A stretch of DNA of 50,641 bases from an uncultured Candidatus Saccharibacteria bacterium (lineage in GTDB: Bacteria; Patescibacteriota; Minisyncoccia; Phycocordibacterales; VMEP01). Below the pieces are notes generated by a model. The model saw only the letters and a program-made list of their open reading frames with translations, did not search any database and was not told the DNA's origin. Position numbers and translations under genes: made by a program. Of this stretch, positions 8,884 through 39,121 are shown in pieces (within the stretch, counting starts at the first letter, position 1; each line of letters begins with the position of its first letter). The DNA is taken from the NCBI GenBank assembly GCA_964414265.1, contig CAYPVT010000001.1, forward strand, positions 1 through 50,641, in the 5' to 3' direction.

Positions 8884-11408
<2,525 letters not shown>

Positions 11409-11415
11409 AAAAATA

Positions 11416-11958
11416 TTATGGCCAATTTGTTATCACGTCTTCGACCAAAACTGTCCTAGGTGATGTGCGAGTCTCCCAAATAACGGTTGAATTAATTTTT
11501 ATTTCGTAATCGCTGATTTTTGAAAGTTTTATTGTCCTTATGTATTTGGTGTTTCCCCAATCACTATCATTCCCATACCAAGAAATGCCACCGCCCATAT
11601 CTTCTTGAACATAAGGGCATGTTCCAGAACAAGCATTAACTGTACTATTGCTGTGTATTGCATCAACATAACAACCATTCGCTCCATAACAATTACTTAA
11701 ATTACCCTGATCCCACAAAGCACTGCCACTCAAAACATTATTGTCTCTCGCGTTGCGTATTAACTCCACACCTTCTTGGGCTAGGTAAACTGCAGTAATT
11801 TGATCTTGGGCGTAATTTGCGGCAAAAAGCGCTCGAGCCACCACCGCCATCGGCATCACAATCGCAATCAAAAGAATAAAAATAGCAACAATGGATTCTA
11901 TTAAAGTAAAACCTCTTTCATTGCCCACTTTATTGTTTCTTTTTATAAAAATATTCAT
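11416..11958 (-). CDS. Type IV minor pilin (prepilin-type N-terminal cleavage/methylation domain)
   Basis: ERG/FTLIESIVAIFILLIAI prepilin signal. The ATG at 11958 follows the upstream stop by 1 nt; the longer ORF starts at a TTG. Confidence 0.8.
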   Translation of the reverse strand: MNIFIKRNNKVGNERGFTLIESIVAIFILLIAIVMPMAVVARALFAANYAQDQITAVYLAQEGVELIRNARDNNVLSGSALWDQGNLSNCYGANGCYVDAIHSNSTVNACSGTCPYVQEDMGGGISWYGNDSDWGNTKYIRTIKLSKISDYEIKINSTVIWETRTSPRTVLVEDVITNWP

Positions 11959-11959
11959 A

Positions 11960-12565
11960 TTAAAAATCAAGGACTCTTTGTGACGCCGACGTTTGAACCT
12001 TAAACCTAGTTTCTAATTTTGTTCCTGGTTTAGCAACACCCTCAACAAAGATAATAGTAAATGGCTGTAAACCGCCGGCACTTGCCTCTCTCACAATAAA
12101 GCGAAGGGTGTCGATTTGGACATCTGGAGAAGTTATCGGCAAAGCAGGCGTTGTTCTCCCTGGGTTTTCAATGCCGGTTATCTTTTTCAGTATCACCTTA
12201 CTGTCTACCTCCAAAGAGTATGTCACGGCGTCTCCTAAATAATCTTTAAACGTAATGTTGTCTTCCCCGTTAACACAATCAACACCAACCGGCGTTTCAG
12301 CTGGGGATAAACTACTTCTATTACAACTATAGACAGTACCAACACGAAGATTTCTTGCCATATTCTCAACAGCAAAGCTTAGATTACTTAAAACATTTCT
12401 TTTTACCTGAGCTTTTGCGTTAGCTTCTTTAATTGTAATTAACGCCATAATACTAACTGTCGAAACAACAACAAAAAGTGACACCGCAACCAAAAGTTCA
12501 ACGAGCGTAAAACCTTTTTTAAAATTAACCTTATTTGATTTCTTAAATTTATTTAAAAGAGACAT
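11960..12565 (-). CDS. Type IV minor pilin (PilW-like)
   Basis: KKG/FTLVELLVAVSLFVVV prepilin signal. ATG at 12565 chosen to avoid the 49-nt overlap with the upstream gene. Confidence 0.78.
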   Translation of the reverse strand: MSLLNKFKKSNKVNFKKGFTLVELLVAVSLFVVVSTVSIMALITIKEANAKAQVKRNVLSNLSFAVENMARNLRVGTVYSCNRSSLSPAETPVGVDCVNGEDNITFKDYLGDAVTYSLEVDSKVILKKITGIENPGRTTPALPITSPDVQIDTLRFIVREASAGGLQPFTIIFVEGVAKPGTKLETRFKVQTSASQRVLDF

Positions 12566-12573
12566 AATATTAA

Positions 12574-13200
12574 TTAAGAAGGACATGCCTCGTTGCCAAC
12601 ACTTATTTGCCCTGTCGACCATACACTTACCTCTCTATATAAACCATCTGGCGATTTAACTGTAATTTCCACATCTGACGGATAGACCTGGGATTCTCCG
12701 CTAATAGCATAAAAAACAGCCTCTGGGTTTGGTCGGGTAAAAATAATATCAAGAGTTCCAAGAGGAAGAATACTTGAGCAACTACTTGAAATTTTATTTG
12801 CCGATAATCCGCTTACTACATTGTTATTTTTTAAATTTATGATTTCAACATCCTCCGCTTGTCCAGAATATTGTCCGCTCCCATCGTTATCAACAAAAAG
12901 AATGAATGATGTTGCTGGGCTAGTATTAAAATGAACCCCGTAAGGTGGGTACTCCGTAATAACGTTTTTAGTTTTCGCAACAGAAATACCATAGACTTGG
13001 GCTTGTCTAATAATAATAGCCATCTGTTGAACTAAGTTCTCAAGAGAAATACGCGCCGACACATCTCTGTAATTTGCCAAAGTAACCGACGAAAGTAACC
13101 CAATTATTCCAATAACAACAAGTAGCTCAATAATCGTAAAACCACGGGAAGGAATTAGTCTTTGGTTTTTAGGTATTAGGTTAATTAGTTTTTGTTTCAT
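12574..13200 (-). CDS. Type IV minor pilin (GspH/FimT-like)
   Basis: SRG/FTIIELLVVIGIIGLL prepilin signal, followed by a beta-rich domain. Confidence 0.8.
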   Translation of the reverse strand: MKQKLINLIPKNQRLIPSRGFTIIELLVVIGIIGLLSSVTLANYRDVSARISLENLVQQMAIIIRQAQVYGISVAKTKNVITEYPPYGVHFNTSPATSFILFVDNDGSGQYSGQAEDVEIINLKNNNVVSGLSANKISSSCSSILPLGTLDIIFTRPNPEAVFYAISGESQVYPSDVEITVKSPDGLYREVSVWSTGQISVGNEACPS

Positions 13201-13222
13201 TTATTATTCTACTTCAAATTTT

Positions 13223-14065
13223 TTAGCCAAAAAATTCCAAAAAACTGAAAACGTTAATATTGAAGAAAAAAGCAACAATAGTACCAGCGATTAAGAAGGG
13301 AGCAAATGGCACTTCTGTTTTCATTGTAATTTTTTTATTAAACAAAGACAATAAAATAATACCGACAATCCCGCCAATCCAAAACGATATCATGAGAGCA
13401 GCCAAGGCTCCCCACAAAGACATCATCCACCCAAGACCAAGCGCCAACTTAACGTCCCCAAACCCCATCGCACGACCACTTGATAAAAACCAAACAAGAA
13501 AAAGTGGTAAAGCTACAGCAGGGCCCGACAAAAGGTTTGGCAAAACAGAAACGAATGTATCACCTAAAACAAAAATATTGATGAATGAAACACCAACGAC
13601 GCGAATAAAAGCAACTGAAATAAATACATAAACGAGCTTATTGGGAATTATTTTATGCCTAAGGTCATAAACACCGATAGCAATAAGCAAACCAAAAAGT
13701 ACAGCGTAAATGATTAATGCACAAAGAATCATCGCTCCGTAAAAATTGCCAACCCCCACAATTGCGCCAAGAATAAAAAAATCTAAAAATTTTTGAGAAA
13801 GACCGAGAAATAAAACGCCAGTTAATACTTCAACTATCGGATACTGCCAAGAAATTATGCTTTTACATGTTCGACATTTTCCTTTTTGAATAACAAAACT
13901 TAAAACAGGAATGAGTTCATACCACTTTAATGTTTTTCCACAGGTGAAACAAAAGGAGCGTCCAGAAAGACCCTTGCCTGTGTTGTGGCGCAAACTTACA
14001 ACGTTTAGGAAACTGCCAACAACTGTTCCTAAAATAAAAGAAATTAACCCAATAATGAATGCCAT
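13223..14065 (-). CDS. pilD: Prepilin peptidase (A24 family)
   Basis: Polytopic membrane protein with an N-terminal CxxC...CxxC (CFTCGK...CRTCKS) and GFGDVKL catalytic aspartate motifs. Confidence 0.92.
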   Translation of the reverse strand: MAFIIGLISFILGTVVGSFLNVVSLRHNTGKGLSGRSFCFTCGKTLKWYELIPVLSFVIQKGKCRTCKSIISWQYPIVEVLTGVLFLGLSQKFLDFFILGAIVGVGNFYGAMILCALIIYAVLFGLLIAIGVYDLRHKIIPNKLVYVFISVAFIRVVGVSFINIFVLGDTFVSVLPNLLSGPAVALPLFLVWFLSSGRAMGFGDVKLALGLGWMMSLWGALAALMISFWIGGIVGIILLSLFNKKITMKTEVPFAPFLIAGTIVAFFFNINVFSFLEFFG

Positions 14066-30941: not shown

Positions 30942-31033
30942 GCATACACCCCTAAAATACACGCGTAAAATTCTGCTGAATTTTCGCTCTGCTCGATTCG
31001 TCAATCTGCGCAAGGTATTTTAGGGGTGTATGC
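30942..31033 (-). repeat. 3H structured element, stand-alone copy inside a perfect 19-bp stem
   Basis: Sense read GCATACACCCCTAAAATAC-CT-TGC-GCA-[GATT GACG AATC]-GA-GCA-[hairpin with CAGCAG loop]-GTATTTTAGGGGTGTATGC. Confidence 0.78.
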
Positions 31034-31039
31034 GGGAAG

Positions 31040-31175
31040 TAAAATACCCAGAAACGCACACAAAACTTCCCGTCTGCCGACAAGCAGGTCAGCCTCCGTC
31101 TCTCAATTACTTCGTTTATCGCAATTAAGCGTCGCGCTGTGCAAGGTCTTTCAAGCGTACCTCGTGGATTTTAGA
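31040..31175 (-). repeat. Degenerate 3H-related array
   Basis: Sense read contains GCTTGAAAGACCTTGCACAGC, the recurrent module CTTAATTGCGATAAACGAAGTAATTGAGAGACGGAGGC (also at 23866 and 33470) and a hairpin CTGCTTGTCGGCAG. Confidence 0.5.
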
Positions 31176-31221
31176 CCCAAAAACTAATTTTCTTTACTTT
31201 GATTTTTCTTAAAAATCTAGA

Positions 31222-31359
31222 CTTTTCCATTAAAAAACATTACCTGCCCGCGTGTACCTGTCTGCGTGTACGCACAGGCAGACGCGCAGGCGGGCGGAGC
31301 GCGACGGCGCGAGTATAGAAAAATTCAGCAGAATTTTATCGTGTTTTTTAATGGAAAAG
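31222..31359 (+). repeat. 3H structured element, stand-alone copy inside a perfect 18-bp stem, with a GC-rich insertion
   Basis: CTTTTCCATTAAAAAACA...[GC-rich palindrome 31245-31298]...GGC-GGA-[GCGC GACG GCGC]-GA-GT-[ATAGAAAAATT CAGCAG AATTTTAT]-CG-TGTTTTTTAATGGAAAAG. Confidence 0.75.
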
Positions 31360-31391
31360 TAAAAACTAATAACTCATGTTAAAATTGCCCC

Positions 31392-31838
31392 ATGTCTTCT
31401 TTCATAGAAAACAAAAAAGCCAGATTTAACTACGAAATCACAGAAACGCTAGAAGCTGGTATTGAGCTTTTAGGTCCTGAGGTTAAATCTATTAAAGGAG
31501 GTATGGGTTCCCTTGAAGGAGCTTATGCTGTCGTCCGTGGTGGCGAGGTGTTTTTGCTTGGCTCAAATATACCGCCATACCAAGCCGGAAATATGCCAAA
31601 AGGTTATGATCCCCTCCGCACCAGAAAACTCCTTCTCACCAAGAAAGAAATCATTGAACTTTCCCAAATGGAGCAAGAAAAGAAGTTGACAATAGTGCCA
31701 CTTTCGATGTATAATAAAGGTGGAAAAGTGAAGGTGTCGCTCGGAGTTGCTCGCGGTAAGAAGAAATTCGATAAACGCGAAACAATAAAAAAACGAGACG
31801 ACATGCGTGAAATAAGGAGAACTTTGAAAAACATGTAG
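31392..31838 (+). CDS. smpB: SsrA-binding protein SmpB
   Basis: 148 aa. NKKARFNYEI, GIELLGPEVKS, RTRKLLLTKKEI are canonical SmpB segments. The tmRNA gene lies downstream. Confidence 0.95.
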   Translation: MSSFIENKKARFNYEITETLEAGIELLGPEVKSIKGGMGSLEGAYAVVRGGEVFLLGSNIPPYQAGNMPKGYDPLRTRKLLLTKKEIIELSQMEQEKKLTIVPLSMYNKGGKVKVSLGVARGKKKFDKRETIKKRDDMREIRRTLKNM

Positions 31839-31839
31839 T

Positions 31840-32109
31840 ATGCCCTATTTTGTTTATATTCTACTCAGTTTAAAAGACGAGAAACTATATGTAGGATGTA
31901 CAGAAAATCTTGAACGTAGAATCAAAGACCACAATCAAGGCAAAGTTATCGCAACTGTAAAACGCCGACCACTTGAAATTATTTATTCTGAAAAATTAGA
32001 CGATAAAAGTGAAGCGTTCAACAGAGAGAGGTTCCTAAAAAGTCTGTGGTCGGTTAGATTCAAACAAAAGATTTTAAAGAAATATAAACAAAATAGGGTG
32101 TGCCATTAA
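31840..32109 (+). CDS. Small GIY-YIG (URI-domain) nuclease family protein
   Basis: 89 aa. YFVYILLSLKDEKLYVGCTENLERRIKDHN matches the GIY...YVG...R...H/N pattern. Wedged between smpB and ssrA. Confidence 0.8.
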   Translation: MPYFVYILLSLKDEKLYVGCTENLERRIKDHNQGKVIATVKRRPLEIIYSEKLDDKSEAFNRERFLKSLWSVRFKQKILKKYKQNRVCH

Positions 32110-32172
32110 ATTGGCTAAACCATTTTCTAAAGAAAATGGTCGCCCGAACATTTTTGCAACAAAAATGTTTTA

Positions 32173-32572
32173 GGGGGATGATTTGCTTAGACAGCTGACC
32201 ATTCTCGCGCGCGCAAGCCAAGCTGTGATGACTTGTTAAACCGTCACAAAACATAAGTGCAAACAAAACTGCACAGGGCTTATCTGTTTCTCCTTATTTT
32301 AAGGCAAACAGCTTCGCCGTCGCTTTCGCTTAATAAAATAAGCTAAGGTCGTTCGTCACATTGCAGTCTGGTAGATGTGAACGGGCGTTATATTTCCGGA
32401 CTAAGCGTATTTCACTTCTCGGGGATACTAACTAAAAAACATAGAGGATAAGTGTGAAAGGATTTTGTTTGCTTTAAACCTTTCGTGCTGAAAACAAAAA
32501 AACAAACTAAGCTTCGTAGACCCGCGCTTGAAAATCATCTGCACGGGGGTTCGAAACCCCCCATCTCCACCA
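32173..32572 (+). ncRNA. ssrA: tmRNA (SsrA), tag ANSFAVAFA
   Basis: 5' GGGGATG pairs with 3' CATCTCC-A-CCA and includes a G3:U70 wobble. T arm is GGGGGTTCGAAACCCCC. The tag ORF GCA AAC AGC TTC GCC GTC GCT TTC GCT TAA TAA lies at 32304-32336. Confidence 0.9.
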
Positions 32573-32583
32573 TTAAAAACATT
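32565..32583 (+). repeat. attL-like 19-bp direct repeat (ssrA 3' end)
   Basis: CTCCACCATTAAAAACATT is repeated exactly at 37904-37922. Confidence 0.85.
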
Positions 32584-32612
32584 AGCGTCCCCAAGGGGCG
32601 CTTTTGTTTTTT
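32584..32612 (+). terminator. Rho-independent terminator after ssrA
   Basis: AGCGTCCCC-AA-GGGGCGCT stem followed by TTTGTTTTTT. Confidence 0.75.
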
Positions 32613-32839
32613 GGTGGAGATGAGCGAGCAAACTGCTTTGCTCGCGTGGGGGAGTTGAAAGTCGGAGCATGTCGCTTGCGACAGCGAGACGGGGTCGAGA
32701 GTACTTAGTGCTCGCAAATTGCAAAGCAATTGAGAACACTTAGTAACTCGTGACCGACGAACCCTGGGGTTTCGAAAGACGGAGGCTGACGAGCCGAGTC
32801 GGGGTCGCGGAAATTTTCAGCAGAAAATTATCTGTGACC
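32612..32839 (+). repeat. Two 3H cores downstream of ssrA (tmRNA-linked copies)
   Basis: TGGTGGAGATG (complement of the tmRNA 3' end), stem AGCGAGCAAACTGCTTTGCTCGCGTG, core 1 at 32660-32755 (GTC-GGA...GA-GAC-GGGG...GTGACC), core 2 at 32778-32839 (GAC-GGA-[GGCT GACG AGCC]-GA-GTC-GGGG...GTGACC). Confidence 0.8.
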
Positions 32840-32903
32840 AACCACCCTTATCGAATTAATTAGCGAAAACTTTTTCAACCAACAAACCTGCTTTTATTTT
32901 TCT

Positions 32904-33263
32904 TTAAAAAGACTTAGTGAAATCCTTCCCTGTTTTACTATCTGTGTAAATAATCACACAATTATCATTCAGAACTGTATCCACGTAGATAATTGGGGTA
33001 TAACGCCACTCTGATACGTTACCCCATTTCTCGTCCTCTGTTTTATAAATATTCAAACAATCTATTTTTCTCTTGGCTATATAGTCTGTGTTTTGTTTCT
33101 CTGTCTCTGCTTGTAATTCTTTAAACTGTTGCTTCTCGATAGATTTTTGTTTACTTATTTGACTAGCATAATAAAAACCACCTAAAATAATACTTGCTAT
33201 TAAAACTGTAGCTGGTAGCGATAAATTATTCAGTTTTTTTATGTTGTTAATTACCCCCTTCAT
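32904..33263 (-). CDS. Small membrane-anchored protein (island paralog 1)
   Basis: Start set at MKGVINNIKKLNNLSLP. The longer ORF runs into 3H repeat DNA. One TM helix. N-terminal 45 aa are homologous to the 34371-34799 product. Confidence 0.65.
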   Translation of the reverse strand: MKGVINNIKKLNNLSLPATVLIASIILGGFYYASQISKQKSIEKQQFKELQAETEKQNTDYIAKRKIDCLNIYKTEDEKWGNVSEWRYTPIIYVDTVLNDNCVIIYTDSKTGKDFTKSF

Positions 33264-33346
33264 ATCCCCCAATCCTACCCCCACCCCGCAAAAATACAAC
33301 CCCCAATCCAAGGGATGCCCTTGGATTTTATTTCTGCATGTCTTGC

Positions 33347-33631
33347 GTGGGGTTTCGAAAAGCGGAGCCATATTTTGTCAGCAGACAAAATGGCGAGCTG
33401 GGGCTGCGACCGAGCCTTGCGACGGCAAAGCGAGAGTTGTAGCCGACACCCCCTATCTTTTCGTGGGGCTTGATTGCGAATACTTGGAGCAATCAAGAGA
33501 CGGAGGGAGTGAAGACGACTGAGTCGTGCCCACAGGGCTTTTCAGCAGAAAAGAACCTGTGGGTTGAAAACCGGAGCGCGACGGCGCGAGGCGGGGTCGC
33601 GCAAAAATTTAGCAAAATTTTATGCGTGACC
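33347..33631 (+). repeat. Composite 3H array inside the island
   Basis: GTGGGGTTTCGAAA-AGC-GGA-[CCATATTTTGT CAGCAG ACAAAATGG]-GA-GCT-GGGG..., then module GCTTGATTGCGAATACTTGGAGCAATCAAGAGACGGAGG, then a second core ACC-GGA-[GCGC GACG GCGC]-GA-GGC-GGGG...GTGACC-AAATCCCCC. Confidence 0.75.
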
Positions 33632-33712
33632 AAATCCCCCAATCCAAGGACATCTCTTGGCTTGGACATGGCAAGGCATAGTTTCGTAGCACAAGTATCC
33701 TAACTATATGAA

Positions 33713-34339
33713 TTATTGATTTTTATATACTACTCGAAATAAATAAACATTATAGAAAAACATGAAATATTCTAAACTACCATTTTTGAATCTTTTGAAG
33801 TATTTAAATTCCTCCTCTCCTGGATTGCCTATTGAGATAAAGCTATTGTCTATTTTCCAAGAATTTGTGTTCTGTTTGTATAAAAAATCTTTTGTATCTA
33901 ATCTTAAATCACGAGACTCAATAACTTTATTATATTCGCTGAAATACAAACCTCTTACAATCTTATCCATAACACGCAACAATCTATCTTTATCTATATT
34001 AGTTCTATAGTTTCCATCTAATAATTCAGTATCATTTACAATTTTTTTAAGTAGATTGTATCTTTCCGGCTGAGTAAGGGACCTAAGACCTCTTTTCTGC
34101 CAGATACGTTCTGCTGTTATATTCCAATTACTTGTGCCCCGTACAAGAGAAATTACATATTGTTCGTCAAACGTGTAATCTGAGTTACATTGGACATGAG
34201 TATTTAGCTTAATTATACCGGGTGGATTCTTTGTCATGAAAAATCCTTTTTGCGGGACATGATCTTCATCAGTTTTTTCAGAGCTTAGTAATTTTTTCCC
34301 ACATAAATAACAAATCTCTCCTTTCTTAAATCTTGTCAT
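33713..34339 (-). CDS. HNH-like nuclease-domain protein with an uncharacterised C-terminal domain
   Basis: 208 aa. The N-terminus CYLCGKK...DEDHVPQK...HVQCN resembles an HNH/zinc-finger core. The remaining 150 aa have no recognised motif. Confidence 0.55.
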   Translation of the reverse strand: MTRFKKGEICYLCGKKLLSSEKTDEDHVPQKGFFMTKNPPGIIKLNTHVQCNSDYTFDEQYVISLVRGTSNWNITAERIWQKRGLRSLTQPERYNLLKKIVNDTELLDGNYRTNIDKDRLLRVMDKIVRGLYFSEYNKVIESRDLRLDTKDFLYKQNTNSWKIDNSFISIGNPGEEEFKYFKRFKNGSLEYFMFFYNVYLFRVVYKNQ

Positions 34340-34370
34340 CTCCTGTTATTTGCCTGTTACTACTTAAAAC

Positions 34371-34799
34371 TTAATTTTTAAGGCAAGTAATATATTTAGA
34401 ATTGTAATTGCTATCATAGTCTGCGGGATGCTTAGGTTCATAACTCATCTCTAGATACGCTATAGACGTTGCTGTGTCCCCTGCCTTTTGTGCCTTTTCG
34501 GAGGCTAATAAATAAGCTCTCTTTGCAATTTTATCAGCATAATCTTTTGCTTCAGTTTTACATAATTCAATTTTTATAGCTGAATTTACCGGTATTGGTT
34601 TTGTTTGGTTTATCTCTGTCTTGGCTTGTATAGCTTCTACTTTTGCTTCTAATTCTATTTGTTGTTGTTTCTCAATAGACCTTTGTTTATTTATTTGGAT
34701 TGCATACAAAAACCCTCCCAAAATAAAACATCCTATTAGAATTGCGACGGGTAGTGATAATTTGTTAAGTTTTTTTATGCTGTTAATTACCTTCTCCAT
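34371..34799 (-). CDS. Small membrane-anchored protein (island paralog 2)
   Basis: MEKVINSIKKLNKLSLPVAILIGCFILGGFLYAIQ...SIEKQQ. Shares its leader and N-terminus with the 32904-33263 product, but the C-terminus differs. Confidence 0.65.
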   Translation of the reverse strand: MEKVINSIKKLNKLSLPVAILIGCFILGGFLYAIQINKQRSIEKQQQIELEAKVEAIQAKTEINQTKPIPVNSAIKIELCKTEAKDYADKIAKRAYLLASEKAQKAGDTATSIAYLEMSYEPKHPADYDSNYNSKYITCLKN

Positions 34800-34919
34800 A
34801 TCCCCCAATCCTACCCCTCCCTAAAATATTTTGCAATTACAAAATATTCGGGCTAGCCCGGGTGTCACCCGAACGCCCTAGGGCGAACATCTCTTTAGTA
34901 GAGATGTTTTAGCCCCACA

Positions 34920-35302
34920 AAAACACAAGCTCCCTTAAAATTACCCAAACACCAAAACCTTATCTGAACTCTCAACCATTTTGAGTAAATCTGGCATCGT
35001 GGAAACTTGGTGCACGCCATTTTCCATACCACGTAATTTAAGACAGGAACCGCACGCATATATTTCTCCCTTTATTTCCTTAAATTCAGTTATTTTTGCC
35101 GAGATATCAAAATCTTTAGTGTCTGAAATAATATCTAACTCCGAACCCTCGCTCATCAAAAAAACTTCCACTTGATGACCTGCTTTTAGCGAAGTAATTC
35201 CGAAACGAAACGTATTCCAAACATGTTCTGGCTTATTTGACTGTAAAATGATTCCAAATTTCATAAATTTTATTGTACTAGGTTTCTTAATGTAACTCCA
35301 CC
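34920..35302. repeat. 383-bp perfect direct repeat, copy 1
   Basis: Identical by eye to 37528-37910 (offset 2608 bp). Contains the whole DsrE-like ORF plus both flanks. Confidence 0.9.
34941..35264 (-). CDS. DsrE/DsrF-like family protein
   Basis: 107 aa. MKFGIIL...VEVFLMSEG...IYACGSCLKLRG resembles the DsrE/YchN fold with a conserved Cys loop. Confidence 0.6.
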   Translation of the reverse strand: MKFGIILQSNKPEHVWNTFRFGITSLKAGHQVEVFLMSEGSELDIISDTKDFDISAKITEFKEIKGEIYACGSCLKLRGMENGVHQVSTMPDLLKMVESSDKVLVFG

Positions 35303-35326
35303 GCTAAAAACACAAGCACTTGAACA

Positions 35327-35749
35327 TTATAAACAGCTAACACCGAATTCAGTAAAAACGTGCTCTTTCCACCATAGAGTTTCTTGCTTAGCAGACCTGT
35401 CAACATGATCTTTGCAATAAACTAACAGAACCCTAACTTCCAATTTTTTGTTACAAACTCCAAGAATACACCTATTCCCACTAGTTTTTGGTGACACATT
35501 AGTTTTCGCAACCTTAAAATCATATTTTACAAGCAACATATCTCTGTTCGAATTACATATAAAATCAAGAACACTCGTGCCACTTAAGTTTGCTATACGC
35601 TCCAAATAATCTTGTATAGATTGTCTAGTTACATCCCAATTAACTTTGTGTTTCTTCTCAAAATCTTTTATGTAGTGTTTCTCTGCATACTCCTCAAAAA
35701 CAACTACATATTTCTGGTTAATAAAGTGTTGCTTCATCTTGCTGAACAA
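35327..35749 (-). CDS. Putative toxin partner of the Panacea-domain antitoxin
   Basis: 140-aa ORF overlapping the end of the upstream DUF4065-like gene by 32 nt. No catalytic motif recognised. Confidence 0.5.
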   Translation of the reverse strand: MFSKMKQHFINQKYVVVFEEYAEKHYIKDFEKKHKVNWDVTRQSIQDYLERIANLSGTSVLDFICNSNRDMLLVKYDFKVAKTNVSPKTSGNRCILGVCNKKLEVRVLLVYCKDHVDRSAKQETLWWKEHVFTEFGVSCL

Positions 35750-36218
35750 TCAAACTATAAGGAATTACGTCGTTTTCAAATGAAACCTTCCATGGGAACT
35801 GTTCATGTGTAAATTTAACTATATCTTCAGTCTTCTTATTCTTCCATTTAGTACAGATATCTTGAACCAATTCAAGCTCGTCTTTTTTTAGAACAGGGTC
35901 CTTGATATTCTCTGTTAAATAAAACAATTCTGCTTTATTGCTTTTTTCAAGTTGAACTTGATTAGTACCAACAAGGTCAATCAATTGATCAAAAAAATCA
36001 ATTGAAACAGGACCTCTTTCAAGTTTCTTATAGGTTACACCAGTAATAGGAGCAAAGTTGTGATAAAAATATACAAAATCAGACAAATAAACCAGCTTTG
36101 CTAGTTTAGTTTTAGTGATTTTCCCATCCCTATCTGCACCATGCAATATACAGGCCTTTATTAATTCACCCAACCTCTCTTGTGGAGTCAGACCTCTTTG
36201 GATCTGTAGTTTACTCAT
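35718..36218 (-). CDS. Panacea-domain (DUF4065, SocA/GepA-like) putative antitoxin
   Basis: 166 aa. ITKTKLAKLVYLSDFVYFYHNFAPITGVTYKKLERGPV matches my recollection of the DUF4065 N-terminal signature (KL.KLlYl.D...). Confidence 0.6.
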   Translation of the reverse strand: MSKLQIQRGLTPQERLGELIKACILHGADRDGKITKTKLAKLVYLSDFVYFYHNFAPITGVTYKKLERGPVSIDFFDQLIDLVGTNQVQLEKSNKAELFYLTENIKDPVLKKDELELVQDICTKWKNKKTEDIVKFTHEQFPWKVSFENDVIPYSLIVQQDEATLY

Positions 36219-36310
36219 TGATTCAATACTATCAAATTAACCGCAACGTGCAACACTTTCAATATGTGAATTCCCCCACCCCACAAAAACACAAGCTTCA
36301 TCGTCAAAAA

Positions 36311-37441
36311 TCAAATCTTATTAAGAATAGCCCTAAGTTTGTCATTTGAATAAACCCGTTGCTTCATTTGGATCCCCTTATCGTTAATAATTTTTTTTTC
36401 TGCAAGTTTTTCCAAATATCTAACGCACGTAGGTCTAGGTATATGAGTCATTCTGCTTAAAATCGGAGCTGTAATATAAGGACGAGAAAATGTGGCTTCT
36501 AAGGCCCTAATCAAACCGAGACCAGCAGTTTCCGTCTCAATCATAGCCCTACTTTTCTTAAACAGTTCATCAATTTTTATTGAAAGATTAAGTGATATTT
36601 TTGCTTGTTCTTCAAGGCCCTTAAGAAAAAATAATAACCAAGCGCGCCAATTTTGTTTTTTATCCACTTTTGAAAGTACGCTCATATATAACCTTTTATG
36701 TCTCTCAAAATAACCACTTGGATAAAGTATCGGCATTTCTAATAAACCTTTCTTTATCAAAAAAAGAGTTATCAATAGACGTCCAACTCTTCCATTCCCA
36801 TCTTCAAATGGGTGTATTGCTTCAAAATGATGATGTATGACGCCTGCAACAATAAGTGGATTAGTGCTACTGGGACTAAGAATAAATTTTTCTAACTCTT
36901 CCATTAACTGTGCTACATGTATTGGTTCTGGGGGAACATATCTCGCTTTTCCCTTACCTGTTCCACTTTGACCAATCCATACGGGTTTTTTTCTAAATTC
37001 ACCAGGATTTTTATTCTTTCCGCGTGTTCCAGTCATTAGGGTTTTGTGGATACTTCTAATAAGGAAATTATTTAAATTATATTTTTTAAGTATTTCAATT
37101 CCCTCAAGCATTGCTTTCTCATAATTGTATATTTCAAATGCTTCGTGCCTTTCTTCGTCTGTTTGGCCAATAACACCTATCTTAAAGACATCGTCGATAG
37201 ATGCCTGAGTTCCTTCTAGCTGAGAACTTGACTCTGCTTCTTTACTAAGAATCGGACGCATTAAAAGCGCAGCGTTTGTGAGAAGTCTCGGAATCTGTTT
37301 CAGGCTCCCAATTGCCCCCTGAGTTTCAGCCAATTGATTTGCCAACTCTTCATCATAAATACTAGACAAATCTGGAGGAAATTTTTGAGCTAGTATTTTA
37401 TTCATTAGCTCATATATAGCAAAAAATGAGCTAGTGGTCAA
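36311..37441 (-). CDS. Fic-family protein (AMPylase-type) with an internal inhibitory motif
   Basis: Fic motif HPFEDGNGRVGRLL. Upstream SSQLEG fits the (S/T)xxxE(G/N) inhibitory helix. C-terminal winged-helix-like tail. Confidence 0.88.
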   Translation of the reverse strand: MTTSSFFAIYELMNKILAQKFPPDLSSIYDEELANQLAETQGAIGSLKQIPRLLTNAALLMRPILSKEAESSSQLEGTQASIDDVFKIGVIGQTDEERHEAFEIYNYEKAMLEGIEILKKYNLNNFLIRSIHKTLMTGTRGKNKNPGEFRKKPVWIGQSGTGKGKARYVPPEPIHVAQLMEELEKFILSPSSTNPLIVAGVIHHHFEAIHPFEDGNGRVGRLLITLFLIKKGLLEMPILYPSGYFERHKRLYMSVLSKVDKKQNWRAWLLFFLKGLEEQAKISLNLSIKIDELFKKSRAMIETETAGLGLIRALEATFSRPYITAPILSRMTHIPRPTCVRYLEKLAEKKIINDKGIQMKQRVYSNDKLRAILNKI

Positions 37442-37527
37442 GCCATCAGTCCATCAGTGAGCAGGTCGTGTGCTGATTACTACACTGCAACAAAAAACCT
37501 GGCCCGAAGGCTATGTCTAAATCCTGT

Positions 37528-37910
37528 AAAACACAAGCTCCCTTAAAATTACCCAAACACCAAAACCTTATCTGAACTCTCAACCATTTTGAGTAAATCT
37601 GGCATCGTGGAAACTTGGTGCACGCCATTTTCCATACCACGTAATTTAAGACAGGAACCGCACGCATATATTTCTCCCTTTATTTCCTTAAATTCAGTTA
37701 TTTTTGCCGAGATATCAAAATCTTTAGTGTCTGAAATAATATCTAACTCCGAACCCTCGCTCATCAAAAAAACTTCCACTTGATGACCTGCTTTTAGCGA
37801 AGTAATTCCGAAACGAAACGTATTCCAAACATGTTCTGGCTTATTTGACTGTAAAATGATTCCAAATTTCATAAATTTTATTGTACTAGGTTTCTTAATG
37901 TAACTCCACC
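37528..37910. repeat. 383-bp perfect direct repeat, copy 2
   Basis: Identical to 34920-35302. Ends at the attR-like ssrA repeat. Confidence 0.9.
37549..37872 (-). CDS. DsrE/DsrF-like family protein (identical second copy)
   Basis: Protein sequence identical to the 34941-35264 product. Confidence 0.6.
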   Translation of the reverse strand: MKFGIILQSNKPEHVWNTFRFGITSLKAGHQVEVFLMSEGSELDIISDTKDFDISAKITEFKEIKGEIYACGSCLKLRGMENGVHQVSTMPDLLKMVESSDKVLVFG

Positions 37911-37922
37911 ATTAAAAACATT
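37904..37922 (+). repeat. attR-like 19-bp direct repeat of the ssrA 3' end
   Basis: CTCCACCATTAAAAACATT is identical to 32565-32583. Confidence 0.85.
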
Positions 37923-38007
37923 GGCTTTCCCCAAAAAAAACCACCCAAACACCACTTTCCCCTCCCTCCTTGTGTATTTACCCTAAAGTAGGCTAGACTA
38001 TATAACT

Positions 38008-38166
38008 ATGGATGAAAAAATAATTGGGTATTGTGTGAAGTGTAAGGAAAAGCGTGAGATGAAGGATGTTCAGCAGACTGAAATAAAGCCTGGACGCCCT
38101 GCAGCAAAAGGTACATGTACAGTGTGTGGAACTGGAATGTACAAAATCCTTCCTTCAAAGAAGTAG
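38008..38166 (+). CDS. Small zinc-ribbon protein (DUF5679-like)
   Basis: 52-aa ORF absent from the track (under 60 aa): MDEKIIGYCVKCKEKREMKDVQQTEIKPGRPAAKGTCTVCGTGMYKILPSKK. Has CxxC...CxxC and is followed by a terminator. Confidence 0.65.
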   Translation: MDEKIIGYCVKCKEKREMKDVQQTEIKPGRPAAKGTCTVCGTGMYKILPSKK

Positions 38167-38183
38167 TTTTAATTAATAGAAAC

Positions 38184-38220
38184 AAAAACAGCCCGACGAA
38201 AGTTTGGGCTGTTTTTGTTT
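38184..38220 (+). terminator. Rho-independent terminator
   Basis: AAAAACAGCCC-GACGAAAGTT-TGGGCTGTTTTTGTTT. Confidence 0.75.
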
Positions 38221-38249
38221 GGTTTGGTATAGTGTTTCATAAATTTAAA

Positions 38250-38323
38250 GGGCTCATAGTATAGCGGTAATACGCGTCCATGGCATGGACGAGTTCGGGG
38301 TCCGACTCCCCGTGAGTCCACCA
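38250..38323 (+). tRNA. tRNA-Ala(GGC), CCA encoded
   Basis: GGGCTCA/TA/GTATAGCGGTAATAC/G/CGTCC-ATGGCAT-GGACG/AGTTC/GGGGTCCGACTCCCC/GTGAGTCC-A-CCA. The G3:U70 identity pair is present. Confidence 0.9.
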
Positions 38324-38413
38324 AAGCTAAAAATCTCCCCTGCGGGAGATTTTTAGCTTTGGTGGAAGGCGGAGCCATATTTCGTCAGCAGACGAAATGG
38401 CGAGCCAGGGTCG
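38324..38413 (+). repeat. tRNA-Ala trailer: 22-bp hairpin sequestering the CCA end, plus a truncated 3H core
   Basis: CCACCAAAGCTAAAAATCTCCC-CTGC-GGGAGATTTTTAGCTTTGGTGG (starts inside the tRNA at 38318), then AA-GGC-GGA-[CCATATTTCGT CAGCAG ACGAAATGG]-GA-GCC-AGGGTCG. There is no P3/GTGACC. Confidence 0.7.
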
Positions 38414-38455
38414 TAAATTAAGTTTCTTATTCTCATCAATCTACCTGTTTTCATC

Positions 38456-38527
38456 TTTAAAAACATTGCGCAGTACGACGGCACGAGCATAGCAAAAACT
38501 TAGTAAAGTTTTATGCGCGTTTTTAAA
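38456..38527 (+). repeat. 3H structured element, stand-alone copy with a 9-bp outer stem
   Basis: TTTAAAAAC-AT-TGC-GCA-[GTAC GACG GCAC]-GA-GCA-[TAGCAAAAACTT AGT AAAGTTTTATGC]-GC-GTTTTTAAA. Confidence 0.65.
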
Positions 38528-38599
38528 TACAAAAAAACAAAAAGAAATATATTGATTATTCCCCCCTTCTCGGCTACAATTCACTGAATAAACAAACAC

Positions 38600-39121
38600 G
38601 TGTCCGTTAAACTCCGCATAAACAATCAAATAAGAGCCCAGGAATTACGTATCATTGACAACGAAGACGGGAATTTAGGCGTTATGTCGTTTGCTGACGC
38701 TTTGGCCAAAGCCAAGGAGAAAGGCCTAGATTTAATTGAAATATCGCCAGATATAGTCCCACCGGTTGCAAAAATAATGGATTATGGTAAATTTCAGTAC
38801 GAGCAGAGCAAGAAAAACAAGAAAATCAAGGCTCACGCTCATGTGACCGAAACCAAGACGGTTCAGGTTAAAATCGGCACTTCTGAGCACGATCTCGGCA
38901 TAAAAGCCAAAAAAGCGTCAGAATGGCTCAAAGATGGCCATCGCGTTAGAGCAGACCTATATTTAGCGGGGCGCGCAAAGTATATGGAGGAAAAATTCCT
39001 TAAAAGTCGCCTCGAACGCATACTTGTTTTGATTAGCGAAAACTACAAAATTGCGGACCCTTTCAAAAAGGGGCCAAAAGGATATAGTATTGTTCTCGAA
39101 AGAGACGCCAAGAAAAACTAG
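38600..39121 (+). CDS. infC: Translation initiation factor IF-3
   Basis: INNQIRAQELRIID, KIMDYGKFQYEQSKK and the C-terminal domain. Non-ATG (GTG) start, as is usual for infC. Followed by rpmI-rplT. Confidence 0.94.
   Translation: MSVKLRINNQIRAQELRIIDNEDGNLGVMSFADALAKAKEKGLDLIEISPDIVPPVAKIMDYGKFQYEQSKKNKKIKAHAHVTETKTVQVKIGTSEHDLGIKAKKASEWLKDGHRVRADLYLAGRAKYMEEKFLKSRLERILVLISENYKIADPFKKGPKGYSIVLERDAKKN

What the first reader, a model, noticed from the sequence alone, without database searches (positions are those of the whole stretch)
32565..37922. Integrase-less 5.3-kb island in the 3' end of ssrA, bounded by perfect 19-bp repeats
CTCCACCATTAAAAACATT occurs at the tmRNA 3' end (32565-32583) and again at 37904-37922. 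Between the two copies lie eight minus-strand ORFs of accessory character, plus three or more 3H cores. tmRNA 3' ends are classic integration sites for tyrosine-integrase islands and prophages. No integrase, excisionase or replication gene is present here, so the island is either a decayed remnant or is mobilised in trans.
Basis: partly seen in the sequence, partly recalled or inferred. Interest (0 to 1): 0.6.

Follow-up and report, generated by a model that had tools for sequence, protein, structure and literature searches.

The report
Recombinase-less gene-cassette stack behind tmRNA gene
The 5.3 kb behind the tmRNA gene of this tiny-genome (Candidatus Paceibacterota) bacterium is a fast-changing stack of small defence and accessory gene cassettes. 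It is bracketed by two exact copies of the tmRNA gene's end and carries no recombinase of its own, which makes it a miniature version of the tmRNA-anchored islands known from Dehalococcoides.

Summary
CTCCACCATTAAAAACATT occurs exactly twice in the 647-kb genome, at 32565-32583 and 37904-37922. Similarity between the two sites extends to 31 nt.

- The interval is a hypervariable slot. Four same-genus genomes and one 99%-identical strain variant each carry different genes between ssrA and the DUF5679 gene/tRNA-Ala.
- The strain variant has the same two exact 19-mers only 2.7 kb apart, with different content between them.
- A sister genus has only about 520 bp in this position.
- A same-family genome has an intact 8-kb element inserted at the same bases (ATCTCCAC|). 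That element carries a large serine recombinase, not a tyrosine integrase.

The interval is not one island. It is a stack of units: 3H mini-elements, three small unknown genes, a DsrE-like gene present twice (383-bp perfect repeat), a Panacea toxin-antitoxin pair and a SoFic defence gene. The junctions carry further, weaker ssrA-end-like cores. The toxin-antitoxin unit is a clean insertion relative to a relative's empty site. The thrC block that relatives have at the right edge is deleted here.

No recombinase lies inside, so mobilisation in trans is inferred, not shown. The scan has noted similar arrays in other Patescibacteria. The closest published analogue is the Dehalococcoides ssrA-specific islands.

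The parts
31840..32109 (+). 89-aa GIY-YIG nuclease gene between smpB and ssrA. It is variably present: in G000, G001 and the strain variant, but not in G002 or G003.
   Evidence: Pfam PF01541, E 1.4e-16. Presence and absence.
32174..32572 (+). ssrA (tmRNA gene). Its 3' end ...CATCTCCACCA is the anchor of the stack.
   Evidence: ARAGORN. Rfam RF00023, 125.8 bits.
32565..32583 (+). Left copy of the 19-mer (site a): the last 8 nt of ssrA plus the first 11 nt of the trailer.
32573..32860 (+). Trailer module T1 followed by two 3H mini-elements. T1 is a hairpin whose 3' arm TGGTGGAGATG pairs with the ssrA end. The module is 91% identical to the displaced trailer in another genus, where ssrA itself is only 62% identical. 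G001 and G003 carry a different module (T2) in its place.
32904..33371 (-). Small membrane or secreted protein (155-aa ORF; the likely true start is at about 33263). It shares its leader and N-terminus with the 145-aa gene.
   Evidence: (family D2).
33270..33301 (+). Site a': a degenerate ssrA-end-like core (CAATCCTACCCCCACCCCGCAAAAATACAA). It is not significant on its own (shuffle P 0.13).
33340..33665 (+). Cluster of 3H mini-elements and hairpins.
   Evidence: Repeat families D3-D9. Many near-identical copies across the order.
33713..34339 (-). 208-aa protein of unknown fold with invariant CxxC...DH...HxxCN (HNH-like motif pattern). It is not a recognisable recombinase.
   Evidence: no family. 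(invariant columns). (pLDDT 84.8; no PDB match at E<=0.001).
34371..34808 (-). 145-aa membrane or secreted protein, paralogous to the 155-aa gene in its leader and N-terminus.
34913..34930 (+). Site b: CCCCAC|AAAAACACAAGC, the left junction of DsrE unit 1. It is orthologous to the single core in G001.
34920..35302 (-). DsrE unit, copy 1. This is a 383-bp perfect repeat containing the 107-aa DsrE-like gene (34941-35264) and its promoter-like upstream region.
   Evidence: Pfam PF02635. The gene was not found in the 12 other family genomes searched; it occurs in 3 genomes of other families in the order at 72-74% aa identity.
35296..35317 (+). Site c: CTCCACCGCTAAAAACACAAGC. It has the same left arm as site f, and its right arm is the left end of the TA unit. 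Shuffle P against the ssrA end is 0.006.
35327..36218 (-). Toxin-antitoxin unit: a 166-aa SocA/Panacea-domain antitoxin (35718-36218) overlapping a 140-aa partner of unknown family (35327-35749). It is 96% identical to a unit in G003, where it is a clean insertion flanked by AAAAACACAA(G/C)C relative to G002.
   Evidence: Pfam PF13274, E 3.5e-15..
36269..36296 (+). Site d: AATTCCCCCACCCCAC|AAAAACACAAGC. It matches 23 of 28 aligned columns of the ssrA T-loop/acceptor end plus trailer of the G001/G003 type (shuffle P 0.017). It is the left boundary of the SoFic unit.
36311..37441 (-). SoFic-type Fic protein (376 aa) with the motif HPFEDGNGRVGR. It is an anti-phage defence candidate.
   Evidence: PADLOC SoFic, E 1.6e-101, full length. 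Pfam Fic and Fic_N.
37528..37910 (-). DsrE unit, copy 2, 100% identical to copy 1 (gene 37549-37872). A partial core, site e (AAAACACAAGC), lies at 37528-37538.
   Evidence: The junctions were confirmed in independent assemblies L106, L107 and L110.
37904..37934 (+). Site f: the right copy of the 19-mer plus 12 further trailer-like columns. The best reading is a displaced ssrA end (attR-type scar, or the attP-type junction of the DsrE unit).
37923..37956 (+). Stub that resembles the left end of a DsrE unit (ACCCAAACACCA...). It is cut off where homology to relatives resumes at 37957. The plus-strand gene and thrC that relatives have here are missing.
   Evidence: Repeat family D11.. thrC is absent from the assembly.
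38008..38323 (+). Conserved right flank: the DUF5679 gene (38008-38166) and tRNA-Ala (38250-38323).

Best explanation
The interval 32573-37956 is a composite stack of small gene units with no recombinase of its own. The units accumulated at the 3' end of ssrA.

Shown:
1. The bases CTCCAC(CA) at the end of ssrA are a recombination breakpoint in this family.
   - Trailer modules are swapped there between near-identical ssrA genes.
   - A complete 8-kb element carrying a large serine recombinase is inserted there in G007. It pushed the same T1 trailer 8 kb downstream.
2. The slot between ssrA and the DUF5679 gene/tRNA-Ala differs in every genome and strain examined. In two independent assemblies the two exact 19-mers stay at its outer limits.
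3. The units are discrete.
   - The toxin-antitoxin (TA) unit is an insertion flanked by a 12-nt direct repeat relative to an empty site.
   - The SoFic unit has two different left neighbours, with the breakpoint at the same core.
   - The DsrE unit has at least two left and three right neighbours.
4. The cargo is defence or addiction genes (SoFic, Panacea TA), a sporadically distributed DsrE-like gene and small secreted or membrane proteins. Several units have a promoter-like sequence of their own.

Inferred:
1. Each unit entered by site-specific recombination between an ssrA-end-like site on the incoming DNA and the ssrA end or one of its displaced copies.
2. The enzyme came in trans, most probably from a large-serine-recombinase element. 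One such element sits at ssrA in G007 and another at tRNA-Asn in this genome.
3. The right 19-mer is the best-preserved displaced ssrA end. The weaker cores are older or hybrid scars.
4. Later events were loss of any integration module, deletion of the neighbouring thrC block, and homologous recombination across shared units. An example is the 383-bp DsrE repeats, which can pop the TA-SoFic segment out or in.

As it stands the stack is probably not self-mobile.
For: 19-mer pair:
- It is unique in the genome, and similarity extends to 31 nt.
- Strain variant L106 has both exact 19-mers 2,676 bp apart, around 3H, a 275-aa gene, SoFic and DsrE.

Variable slot in relatives:
- G001 has 4.6 kb, G003 3.8 kb and G002 1.8 kb of different genes between ssrA and thrC.
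- G004 and G006 have only a GIY-YIG ORF in about 520 bp.

G007 element:
- It carries a 567-aa protein with Resolvase, Recombinase and Zn_ribbon_recom domains. The gene reads into ssrA.
- attL is ...CATCTCCAC|AACCG.
- attR is ...GTAATCTCCAC|CGATTTAAAAACATTAGC..., followed by a trailer 91-93% identical to window 32563-32659.

Trailer swap:
- ssrA of G000 is 98.5% identical to G001 and 97.8% to G003, yet the sequences diverge abruptly after CTCCAC.
- G002 (90% ssrA identity) and G007 (62%) share the G000 trailer.

Units and cores:
- The TA unit is filled in G003 and empty in G002, with AAAAACACAA(G/C)C on both sides.
- The SoFic left boundary lies at the core in both G000 and L060/L106.
- Cores are concentrated in the island: 5 of 10 genome-wide CCAC(N0-4)AAAAACA[CT] matches and 4 of 4 AAAACACAAGC matches.
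- Shuffle P against the ssrA end is <0.001 for f, 0.006 for c, 0.017 for d, 0.02 for G003R and 0.018 for the G002 site.

Other support:
- GC is low across the interval.
- DsrE has a patchy distribution.
- This genome has a serine recombinase whose gene overlaps the tRNA-Asn 3' end, at C4:11722-13320.
- Published precedent exists for tandem ssrA islands, some without integration modules, bounded by a 20-bp ssrA repeat: PMC3146451.
Against: - No recombinase or recombinase pseudogene lies in the interval (tblastn at E<=10). None was found whose site contains the 19-mer.
- The serine recombinases in G000, G001 and G002 sit at other tRNA genes and are only 28-33% identical to the ssrA-specific one in G007.
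- In G007 the two junctions share only 8 bp. The 19-31-nt identity here is therefore longer than that element needs.
- The sequence right of the left 19-mer is shared with G002, which has no second copy. The left end is not a classical attL.
- Sites a', b and e, the G003 left core and the G001 core are not individually significant against the ssrA end.
- The core CCACAAAAACACAAGC is at background frequency outside this genus.
- Once DsrE is duplicated, homologous recombination alone can produce the observed neighbour combinations.
Confidence: 0.55

Rival explanations
1. The units are inserted by a tyrosine recombinase. This could be a lost integrase of a classical tmRNA-targeting island or prophage, or the host's single Xer-like enzyme acting as it does for Xer-exploiting elements (IMEX or dif modules).
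For: - A 12-31-nt identity block at the junctions is more typical of tyrosine-recombinase cores than the 8 bp shared by the G007 junctions.
- The genome encodes one 308-aa tyrosine recombinase, at C25:489-1415.
- Arrays of integrase-less modules flanked by repeated sites are the hallmark of Xer-exploiting elements (my own knowledge).
Against: - No tyrosine integrase lies next to ssrA in any of the nine family loci examined.
- The only complete element at this site carries a serine recombinase.
- On inspection the cores show no 11-6-11 dyad like a dif site.
- The published Dehalococcoides serine-recombinase islands also have 20-bp repeats, so repeat length does not discriminate between the two enzyme types.
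Confidence: 0.17
2. There is no dedicated site-specific system. The slot changes by homologous or microhomology-mediated recombination between recycled leader, trailer and terminator modules. The right 19-mer is a local duplication or conversion of the ssrA trailer.
For: - Leader modules are shared among unrelated small genes in G000, G001, G003 and L060.
- The 383-bp DsrE repeat gives ample homology.
- Several cores are not individually significant.
- The core is genus-specific.
- TA-unit identity between G000 and G003 (96%) is about the same as their core-gene identity. This fits vertical inheritance plus loss.
Against: - Breakpoints fall repeatedly at the same 12-nt core, with different sequence on both sides.
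- The core occurs nowhere else among the genome's intergenic regions.
- The left arm of site f is unrelated to ssrA right up to CTCCACC. That is a sharp att-type boundary, not a gradient of homology.
- A bona fide integrase-driven insertion uses the same bases in G007.
Confidence: 0.2
3. The structure, or its second DsrE copy, is an assembly artefact. It could come from chimeric joining of strain variants, or from a 2.6-kb circular form folded into the contig.
For: - A perfect 383-bp repeat inside a short-read MAG contig is a typical mis-join risk.
- Contig L110 (window 35176-37654) would look the same if a 2,608-bp circle existed.
- Several short contigs end inside DsrE.
Against: - Independent assemblies from other samples reproduce junctions c-TA-d-Fic-e at 100% identity (L110, L111).
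- They also reproduce e-DsrE-f-flank at 99.7% (L107).
- The variant L106 reproduces the whole ssrA-to-tRNA-Ala stretch.
- Any linear molecule holding c...e must have DsrE sequence at both ends.
- A circle without a replication gene would not be expected to reach assembly depth.
Confidence: 0.05
4. The interval is a decayed prophage integrated in ssrA.
For: tmRNA genes are classical prophage attachment sites (my own knowledge). The Fic and Panacea proteins hit PHROG families of unknown function.
Against: There are no structural, replication, lysis or integrase genes. The interval is only 5.3 kb. Its units are exchanged one at a time among strains.
Confidence: 0.03

Closest known systems
Dehalococcoides ssrA-specific genomic islands (ssrA-GIs; McMurdie et al. 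2011, PMC3146451)
   Same: - Several tandem islands lie directly downstream of the single-copy tmRNA gene, each bounded by ssrA or a roughly 20-bp direct repeat of its 3' end.
- The region is strain-variable.
- The integrase is a large serine recombinase next to attL on the reverse strand, with its gene running into ssrA. This is seen here in relative G007.
- Some islands lack any integration module, and the authors suggest they are cis-mobilisable or fixed.
   Different: - The units here are 0.4-1.2 kb with one or two genes each, against islands of many kb.
- No integration module (DsiB, DsiA, ParB, Mom) is present in this genome's stack.
- The insertion point is at the acceptor/CCA end (CTCCAC|), not in the T-loop.
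- Only 8 of the 19 repeat bases lie inside ssrA.
- The host is Patescibacteria, and the cargo is defence or addiction genes rather than reductive dehalogenases.
Classical tRNA/tmRNA-targeting integrative elements with tyrosine integrases (Williams, 'Traffic at the tmRNA gene', 2003; cited from memory)
   Same: A direct repeat of the gene's 3' end marks the far boundary. The 3'-terminal sublocation is used. The inserted DNA restores the gene's 3' end.
   Different: No tyrosine integrase lies next to ssrA in any of the loci examined. The complete relative uses a serine recombinase. The interval is a stack of mini-units, not one element.
Integron cassette arrays
   Same: One-gene units share one orientation and are separated by short recombination-site-like junctions. 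Content differs between close strains. The recombinase lies outside the cassettes.
   Different: No IntI-type integrase or attI was found. The junction cores have no evident attC-type imperfect palindrome. The anchor is an RNA gene end. Several units show promoter-like sequences of their own.
SCCmec-type cassette chromosomes and accretion of cis-mobilisable elements
   Same: Serine-recombinase-driven insertion occurs at the 3' end of a single-copy essential gene. Composite arrays form in which recombinase-less units sit between repeated sites.
   Different: The target is ssrA rather than orfX/rlmH, the scale is far smaller, and no ccr-like gene pair is present in the stack.

Membership tests
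ssrA-specific genomic islands (Dehalococcoides type) | Lies immediately downstream of the single-copy ssrA gene in a strain-variable region. | tested here: met
   ssrA is at 32174-32572. Content differs in G001, G002, G003 and variant L106.
ssrA-specific genomic islands (Dehalococcoides type) | The far boundary is a direct repeat of about 20 bp of the ssrA 3' end. | tested here: met
   There is an exact 19-mer at both ends, unique in the genome. Only 8 nt lie inside the gene and 11 nt are trailer.
ssrA-specific genomic islands (Dehalococcoides type) | A large serine recombinase (DsiB-like) integration module lies next to attL and reads into ssrA. | tested here: not met
   None is present in window 32573-37956. 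The feature is present in same-family genome G007.
ssrA-specific genomic islands (Dehalococcoides type) | The insertion point is in the T-loop of tmRNA (between positions 333 and 334 in Dehalococcoides). | tested here: not met
   The breakpoints here and in G007 lie in the acceptor 3' strand, at ...ATCTCCAC|.
Tyrosine-integrase tmRNA islands or prophages | A tyrosine integrase gene lies at one end of the element. | tested here: not met
   PF00589 gives a single hit in the genome, a 308-aa Xer-like protein on contig C25. There is none in the island.
Integron | An IntI integrase with an adjacent attI and promoter Pc. | tested here: not met
   There is no second tyrosine recombinase in the genome, and none near ssrA.
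Integron | attC sites: imperfect palindromes that fold as single strands, one at the 3' end of each cassette. | tested here: inconclusive
   The cores (CCAC AAAAACACAAGC) were inspected and no consistent dyad was seen. No folding test was run on them.
Xer-exploiting elements (IMEX or dif modules) | Flanking sites resemble the host dif site (two 11-bp arms around a 6-bp centre). | not tested
   The host dif site was not identified. On inspection the cores lack an 11-6-11 dyad.
SoFic anti-phage defence protein | A full-length match to the SoFic model and an intact Fic motif HxFx(D/E)GNGRxxR. | tested here: met
   PADLOC PDLC03963, E 1.6e-101, residues 17-374 on profile positions 10-359 of 361. 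HPFEDGNGRVGR was read in the translation. Defence activity was not tested.
Panacea-domain (SocA-like) toxin-antitoxin pair | A Panacea-domain antitoxin is translationally coupled to a toxin gene. | tested here: inconclusive
   PF13274, E 3.5e-15. It overlaps the 140-aa ORF by 32 nt. The partner has no family hit, so its toxin identity is unproven.

The most novel reading that the evidence does not exclude
The ssrA 3' end of these ultra-small bacteria may work as the anchor of an integron-like capture platform. Under this reading:
- Promoter-bearing units of one or two genes, each ending in an ssrA-end mimic, are stacked and exchanged by a recombinase supplied in trans. That recombinase would be a large serine recombinase from a resident element, or the single Xer-like enzyme.
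- This gives a 0.65-Mb genome a dedicated, rapidly turning-over locus for defence and addiction genes.
- The same chemistry would move the protein-less 3H/trailer modules, which are swapped at the same bases.
Probability: 0.22. Interest if true: 0.7.

Novelty: new variant of a known kind. Interest (0 to 1): 0.45.

Why it matters
Patescibacteria have minimal genomes and few recognisable mobile elements, so it is unclear how they acquire and turn over accessory and defence genes. This locus shows a concrete route: a slot at the tmRNA gene end where very small units are gained, lost and reshuffled between strains that are otherwise 99% identical. The units include SoFic, a Panacea toxin-antitoxin pair, a DsrE-like gene and secreted proteins. 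If the junction cores are true recombination sites served in trans, the system would be a miniature form of the Dehalococcoides ssrA islands that behaves like an integron. It would also offer short, defined sites for heterologous recombination assays. If the cores are not true sites, the locus is still a clear example of a recombination hotspot defined by tRNA-like gene ends.

Tried and rejected
2. Rfam at gathering and E-value thresholds: nothing besides tmRNA and tRNA in 31000-39000.
3. 19-mer scans of the metagenome and genome collections: 47 loci. All were chance hits in unrelated taxa, except ssrA ends of the G002 type and strain variant L060. No element with the 19-mer in an attP context and no integrase were found.
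4. Order-wide scan for the core CCACAAAAACACAAGC: the frequency outside the genus equals that of the reversed-pattern control, so it is not a widely conserved site.
5. 'Orphan recombinase tail' idea, taken from earlier scan notes. The minus-strand reading left of sites c and f gives no similarity to the predicted circular-form tail of the G007 recombinase, and that sequence reads better as the DsrE promoter. The apparent similarity between the G007 attR left arm and the DsrE left arm is too weak to use.
6. DsrE homologues in other families: no ssrA-like motif upstream and no tRNA nearby.
7. The 208-aa protein as a hidden recombinase: there is a confident model but no PDB fold match and no family hit.
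8. Serine recombinases in G001 and G002 are not at ssrA. G005 and G011 have no element at ssrA.
9. The ARAGORN 'tRNA-Stop' call on C15 is most simply a tRNA-Lys(UUU) with a shifted anticodon call. I rejected it as a sign of recoding.

Full report
**1. Observation**

The 19-mer CTCCACCATTAAAAACATT is at 32565-32583 and 37904-37922 on the + strand. Allowing 2 mismatches gives only these two matches in the window, against 0.01 expected from shuffles. They are also the only two in the whole 647,542-bp, 43-contig assembly, which is 92.8% complete; the window is its entire contig C1.

ARAGORN and Rfam place tmRNA at 32174-32572. The repeat therefore holds only the last 8 nt of ssrA (CTCCACCA) plus 11 nt of trailer. 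Similarity between the two sites continues to 31 columns:
- CTCCACCATTAAAAACATTAGC-GTCCCCAA (left site)
- CTCCACCATTAAAAACATTGGCTTTCCCCAA (right site)

The local score is 24, while the best of 2000 shuffles reached 18. To the left of CTCCACC the two sites are unrelated.

Eight minus-strand ORFs lie between the copies:
- 155, 208 and 145 aa, with no family hit.
- A DsrE-like protein of 107 aa.
- A 140-aa ORF overlapping a 166-aa SocA/Panacea-domain protein.
- A 376-aa Fic protein.
- The same DsrE gene a second time.

The Fic protein is a full-length match to the PADLOC SoFic defence model (E 1.6e-101). None of the four profile libraries reports an integrase, excisionase or replication protein. 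GC falls to 33-36% inside the interval, against about 40% around it.

**2. Structure the finding did not describe**

- A 383-bp perfect direct repeat (34920-35302 = 37528-37910) covers the DsrE gene, its upstream 32 nt and CTCCACC.
- The left DsrE copy therefore ends in a third motif copy, CTCCACCGCTAAAAACACAAGC (35296-35317, site c).
- A related core, CCCCAC|AAAAACACAAGC, sits at the other junctions:
  - 34913-34930 (site b).
  - 36269-36296 (site d).
  - 37528-37538 (site e, partial).
  - 33270-33301 (site a', degenerate).
- Genome-wide, 5 of 10 matches to CCAC(N0-4)AAAAACA[CT] and 4 of 4 matches to AAAACACAAGC fall in these 5.3 kb, all on the + strand.
- Tested against the ssrA end plus trailer by shuffling, f (P<0.001), c (0.006) and d (0.017) stand out.
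- Sites a', b and e do not stand out on their own.
- Right of site f, bases 37923-37955 resemble the left end of a DsrE unit (family D11).

**3. Comparison with relatives**

A same-genus record is titled Candidatus Paceibacterota.

The three same-genus genomes all read smpB - ssrA - variable block - thrC(-) - DUF5679(+) - tRNA-Ala. G002 and G003 also have a small plus-strand gene before thrC.
- The variable blocks are 4.6 kb (G001), 3.8 kb (G003) and 1.8 kb (G002) and hold different genes.
- G000 lacks thrC altogether. Its homology to the relatives resumes only at 37957, about 50 nt before the DUF5679 start codon.
- In the sister genus (G004, G006), ssrA and tRNA-Ala are about 520 bp apart, with only a trailer and a GIY-YIG ORF between them.

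It also shows that the right edge in G000 includes a deletion.

**4. The ssrA end is a recombination breakpoint**

- ssrA of G000 is 98.5% identical to that of G001 and 97.8% to G003, yet the sequences diverge abruptly after ...CATCTCCAC.
  - G000 and G002 continue CATTAAAAACATTAGCG... (trailer T1).
  - G001 and G003 continue AATTATCAAAAATGAGC... or AAGTACAAAAATGAGC... (trailer T2).
- Same-family genome G007 has an approximately 8-kb element at the same bases.
  - Its 567-aa protein has Resolvase, Recombinase and Zn_ribbon_recom domains, and the gene reads antisense into ssrA.
  - Its left junction is ...CCCCCCATCTCCAC|AACCGTAG...
  - Its right junction is ...GTAGTAATCTCCAC|CGATTTAAAAACATTAGC...
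  - The right junction is followed by a T1 trailer 91% identical to window 32566-32660. Between these two genomes ssrA is only 62% identical and smpB 67%.
- The T1 trailer is thus either mobile or under unusual constraint. The element seen to use this site carries a large serine recombinase.
- G000 itself has such an enzyme (C4:11722-13320, 32% identical), with its gene overlapping the 3' end of tRNA-Asn. G001 and G002 have one each elsewhere.
- The only tyrosine recombinase in G000 is a 308-aa Xer-like protein on contig C25.

**5. The units are discrete and are exchanged**

*Toxin-antitoxin unit.* The unit at window 35306-36294 is 96% identical to one in G003. There it lies between ...CTCTCCCAC|AAAAACACAAGCAC... 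and ...CCCCACCCCAC|AAAAACACAACC... G002 has a single ...CTCTCCCCC|AAAAACACAAGCAC... at the corresponding place, with homologous sequence on both sides. This is a filled-versus-empty pair with the 12-nt core on both sides of the insert.

*Strain variant.* A metagenome variant (L060, L106; 98.6-99.5% identical in the flanks) reads smpB - GIY-YIG - ssrA - 19-mer - T1 - one 3H - 275-aa secreted protein - core - SoFic - DsrE - 19-mer - DUF5679 - tRNA-Ala.
- Both exact 19-mers are present, 2,676 bp apart.
- The left boundary of the SoFic unit lies at the core in both strains, but with different neighbours.

*Independent assemblies.*
- Two contigs reproduce c-TA-d-SoFic-e at 100% identity (L110, L111).
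- One contig reproduces e-DsrE-f-flank at 99.7% (L107).
- Two 98% relatives show DsrE followed by a c-type site and a third, different neighbour (L108, L109).

*DsrE distribution.* DsrE was not found in the 12 other family genomes searched. It occurs at 72-74% aa identity in three genomes of other families, with no ssrA-like motif there.

**6. Interpretation**

The best reading is a composite, recombinase-less stack accreted at the ssrA end.
- The right 19-mer is the best-preserved displaced ssrA end.
- The internal cores are older or hybrid scars.
- The present arrangement was shaped further by deletion of the thrC block and by homologous recombination across shared units.
- The two identical DsrE copies make the TA-SoFic segment (2,608 bp) easy to lose or regain.

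Mobilisation in trans by a large serine recombinase is an inference. It rests on G007, on the resident enzyme at tRNA-Asn, and on the published Dehalococcoides system. In that system, tandem islands downstream of ssrA are bounded by a 20-bp ssrA repeat, sixteen carry a DsiB serine-recombinase module next to attL overlapping ssrA, and others lack any module and are suggested to be cis-mobilisable or fixed (PMC3146451).

Points against this reading:
- No enzyme is linked to the 19-mer.
- The identity block is longer than the 8 bp shared by the G007 junctions.
- The left end looks like an intact ssrA-plus-trailer, not an attL.
- Several cores are individually weak.
- The core is genus-specific.

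I therefore keep sizeable weight on two rivals: a tyrosine or Xer-type mechanism, and plain homologous or microhomology exchange between recycled modules. An assembly artefact is unlikely given the independent contigs.

**7. Cargo**

- SoFic has the intact motif HPFEDGNGRVGR.
- The Panacea protein is coupled, by a 32-nt overlap, to a 140-aa partner with no family hit.
- The 208-aa protein gives a confident model (pLDDT 84.8) with no PDB match at E<=0.001. It has invariant CxxC...DH...HxxCN, an HNH-like pattern. A 49%-identical homologue lies in a small accessory block downstream of a tRNA-Gly in another genome.
- The 155-aa and 145-aa proteins share their leader and N-terminus but not their C-termini.

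**8. Novelty**

Tandem ssrA islands bounded by ssrA-end repeats, including module-less ones, are published for Dehalococcoides. The library searches found no description of such islands in Patescibacteria.

Earlier notes of this scan report similar recombinase-less cassette arrays and serine-recombinase elements at ssrA in other Patescibacteria genomes. Within the scan this is therefore a recurring theme. I reached the G007 element before reading those notes, and I used them for the literature lead.

I class the locus as a new variant of a known kind. It has miniature units of one or two genes, a different insertion point (acceptor end rather than T-loop), no integration module, defence cargo and a different phylum.

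Noticed in passing
L023 (G004:C10) 1134-1659 and L024 (G006:C32) 1241-1751; window 32743-32760: In the sister genus, the only ORF between ssrA and tRNA-Ala is an 83-89-aa GIY-YIG nuclease. Its 3' flank, AACACTTAGTAACTCGTGACCGATGAA, is the sequence that closes the third hairpin of the first 3H element after ssrA in the window. GIY-YIG genes may therefore be the cargo of full-length versions of the 3H mini-elements.
   Followed up: partly
window 31840-32109; also window 5775-5987 and G000 contigs C15:13997-14242 and C13:1904-2098: Small GIY-YIG paralogues are scattered in the genome. Two of them lie next to tRNA or tmRNA genes. The copy between smpB and ssrA is present in G000, G001 and the strain variant but absent in G002 and G003.
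   Followed up: partly
window 32573-32660 versus L022 (G007), reverse-complement coordinates 9241-9337: The ssrA trailer module is 91% identical between two genera whose ssrA (62%) and smpB (67%) are far more diverged. Its distribution (G000, G002, G007 versus G001, G003) disagrees with ssrA similarity. This suggests that trailer/3H modules move horizontally.
   Followed up: partly
G000 contig C4:1-13365: A 532-aa large serine recombinase gene (11722-13320, +) overlaps the 3' end of tRNA-Asn (13291-13365, -). It is preceded by about 10 kb of large ORFs (555-770 aa) that look like restriction-modification or defence genes. This is probably an intact integrative element at tRNA-Asn.
   Followed up: partly
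window 37957 (breakpoint); L014, L015, L016: Threonine synthase (thrC) lies next to the DUF5679 gene in all three same-genus genomes. It is missing from the whole G000 assembly and from strain variant L106.
   Followed up: partly
window 33713-34339; L112 6001-6639: The 208-aa protein family has invariant CxxC...DH...HxxCN, a confident predicted structure and no PDB fold match. A homologue sits in a small accessory block downstream of a tRNA-Gly gene in another CPR genome.
   Followed up: partly
window 38449-38467: Downstream of tRNA-Ala, TTTCATCTTTAAAAACATT looks like the ssrA end plus T1 trailer with CCACCA missing (4 mismatches to the 19-mer). It is followed directly by a 3H-type hairpin.
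   Followed up: no
window 34861-34891 versus L108: G000 has an extra palindromic stretch of about 27-31 nt (TAGCCCGGGTGTCACCCGAACGCCCTAGGGC) between GGGC repeats. A 98%-identical relative lacks it. It is a very small hairpin insertion.
   Followed up: no
window 33263-33300, 34795-34830; L060 2495-2548: The shared leader of the small secreted-protein genes (minus strand: GTGGGGTGGGGGTAGGATTGGGGGATATG) is the antisense of an ssrA-end-like C-rich stretch. Displaced ssrA ends may have been reused as G-rich ribosome-binding leaders.
   Followed up: no
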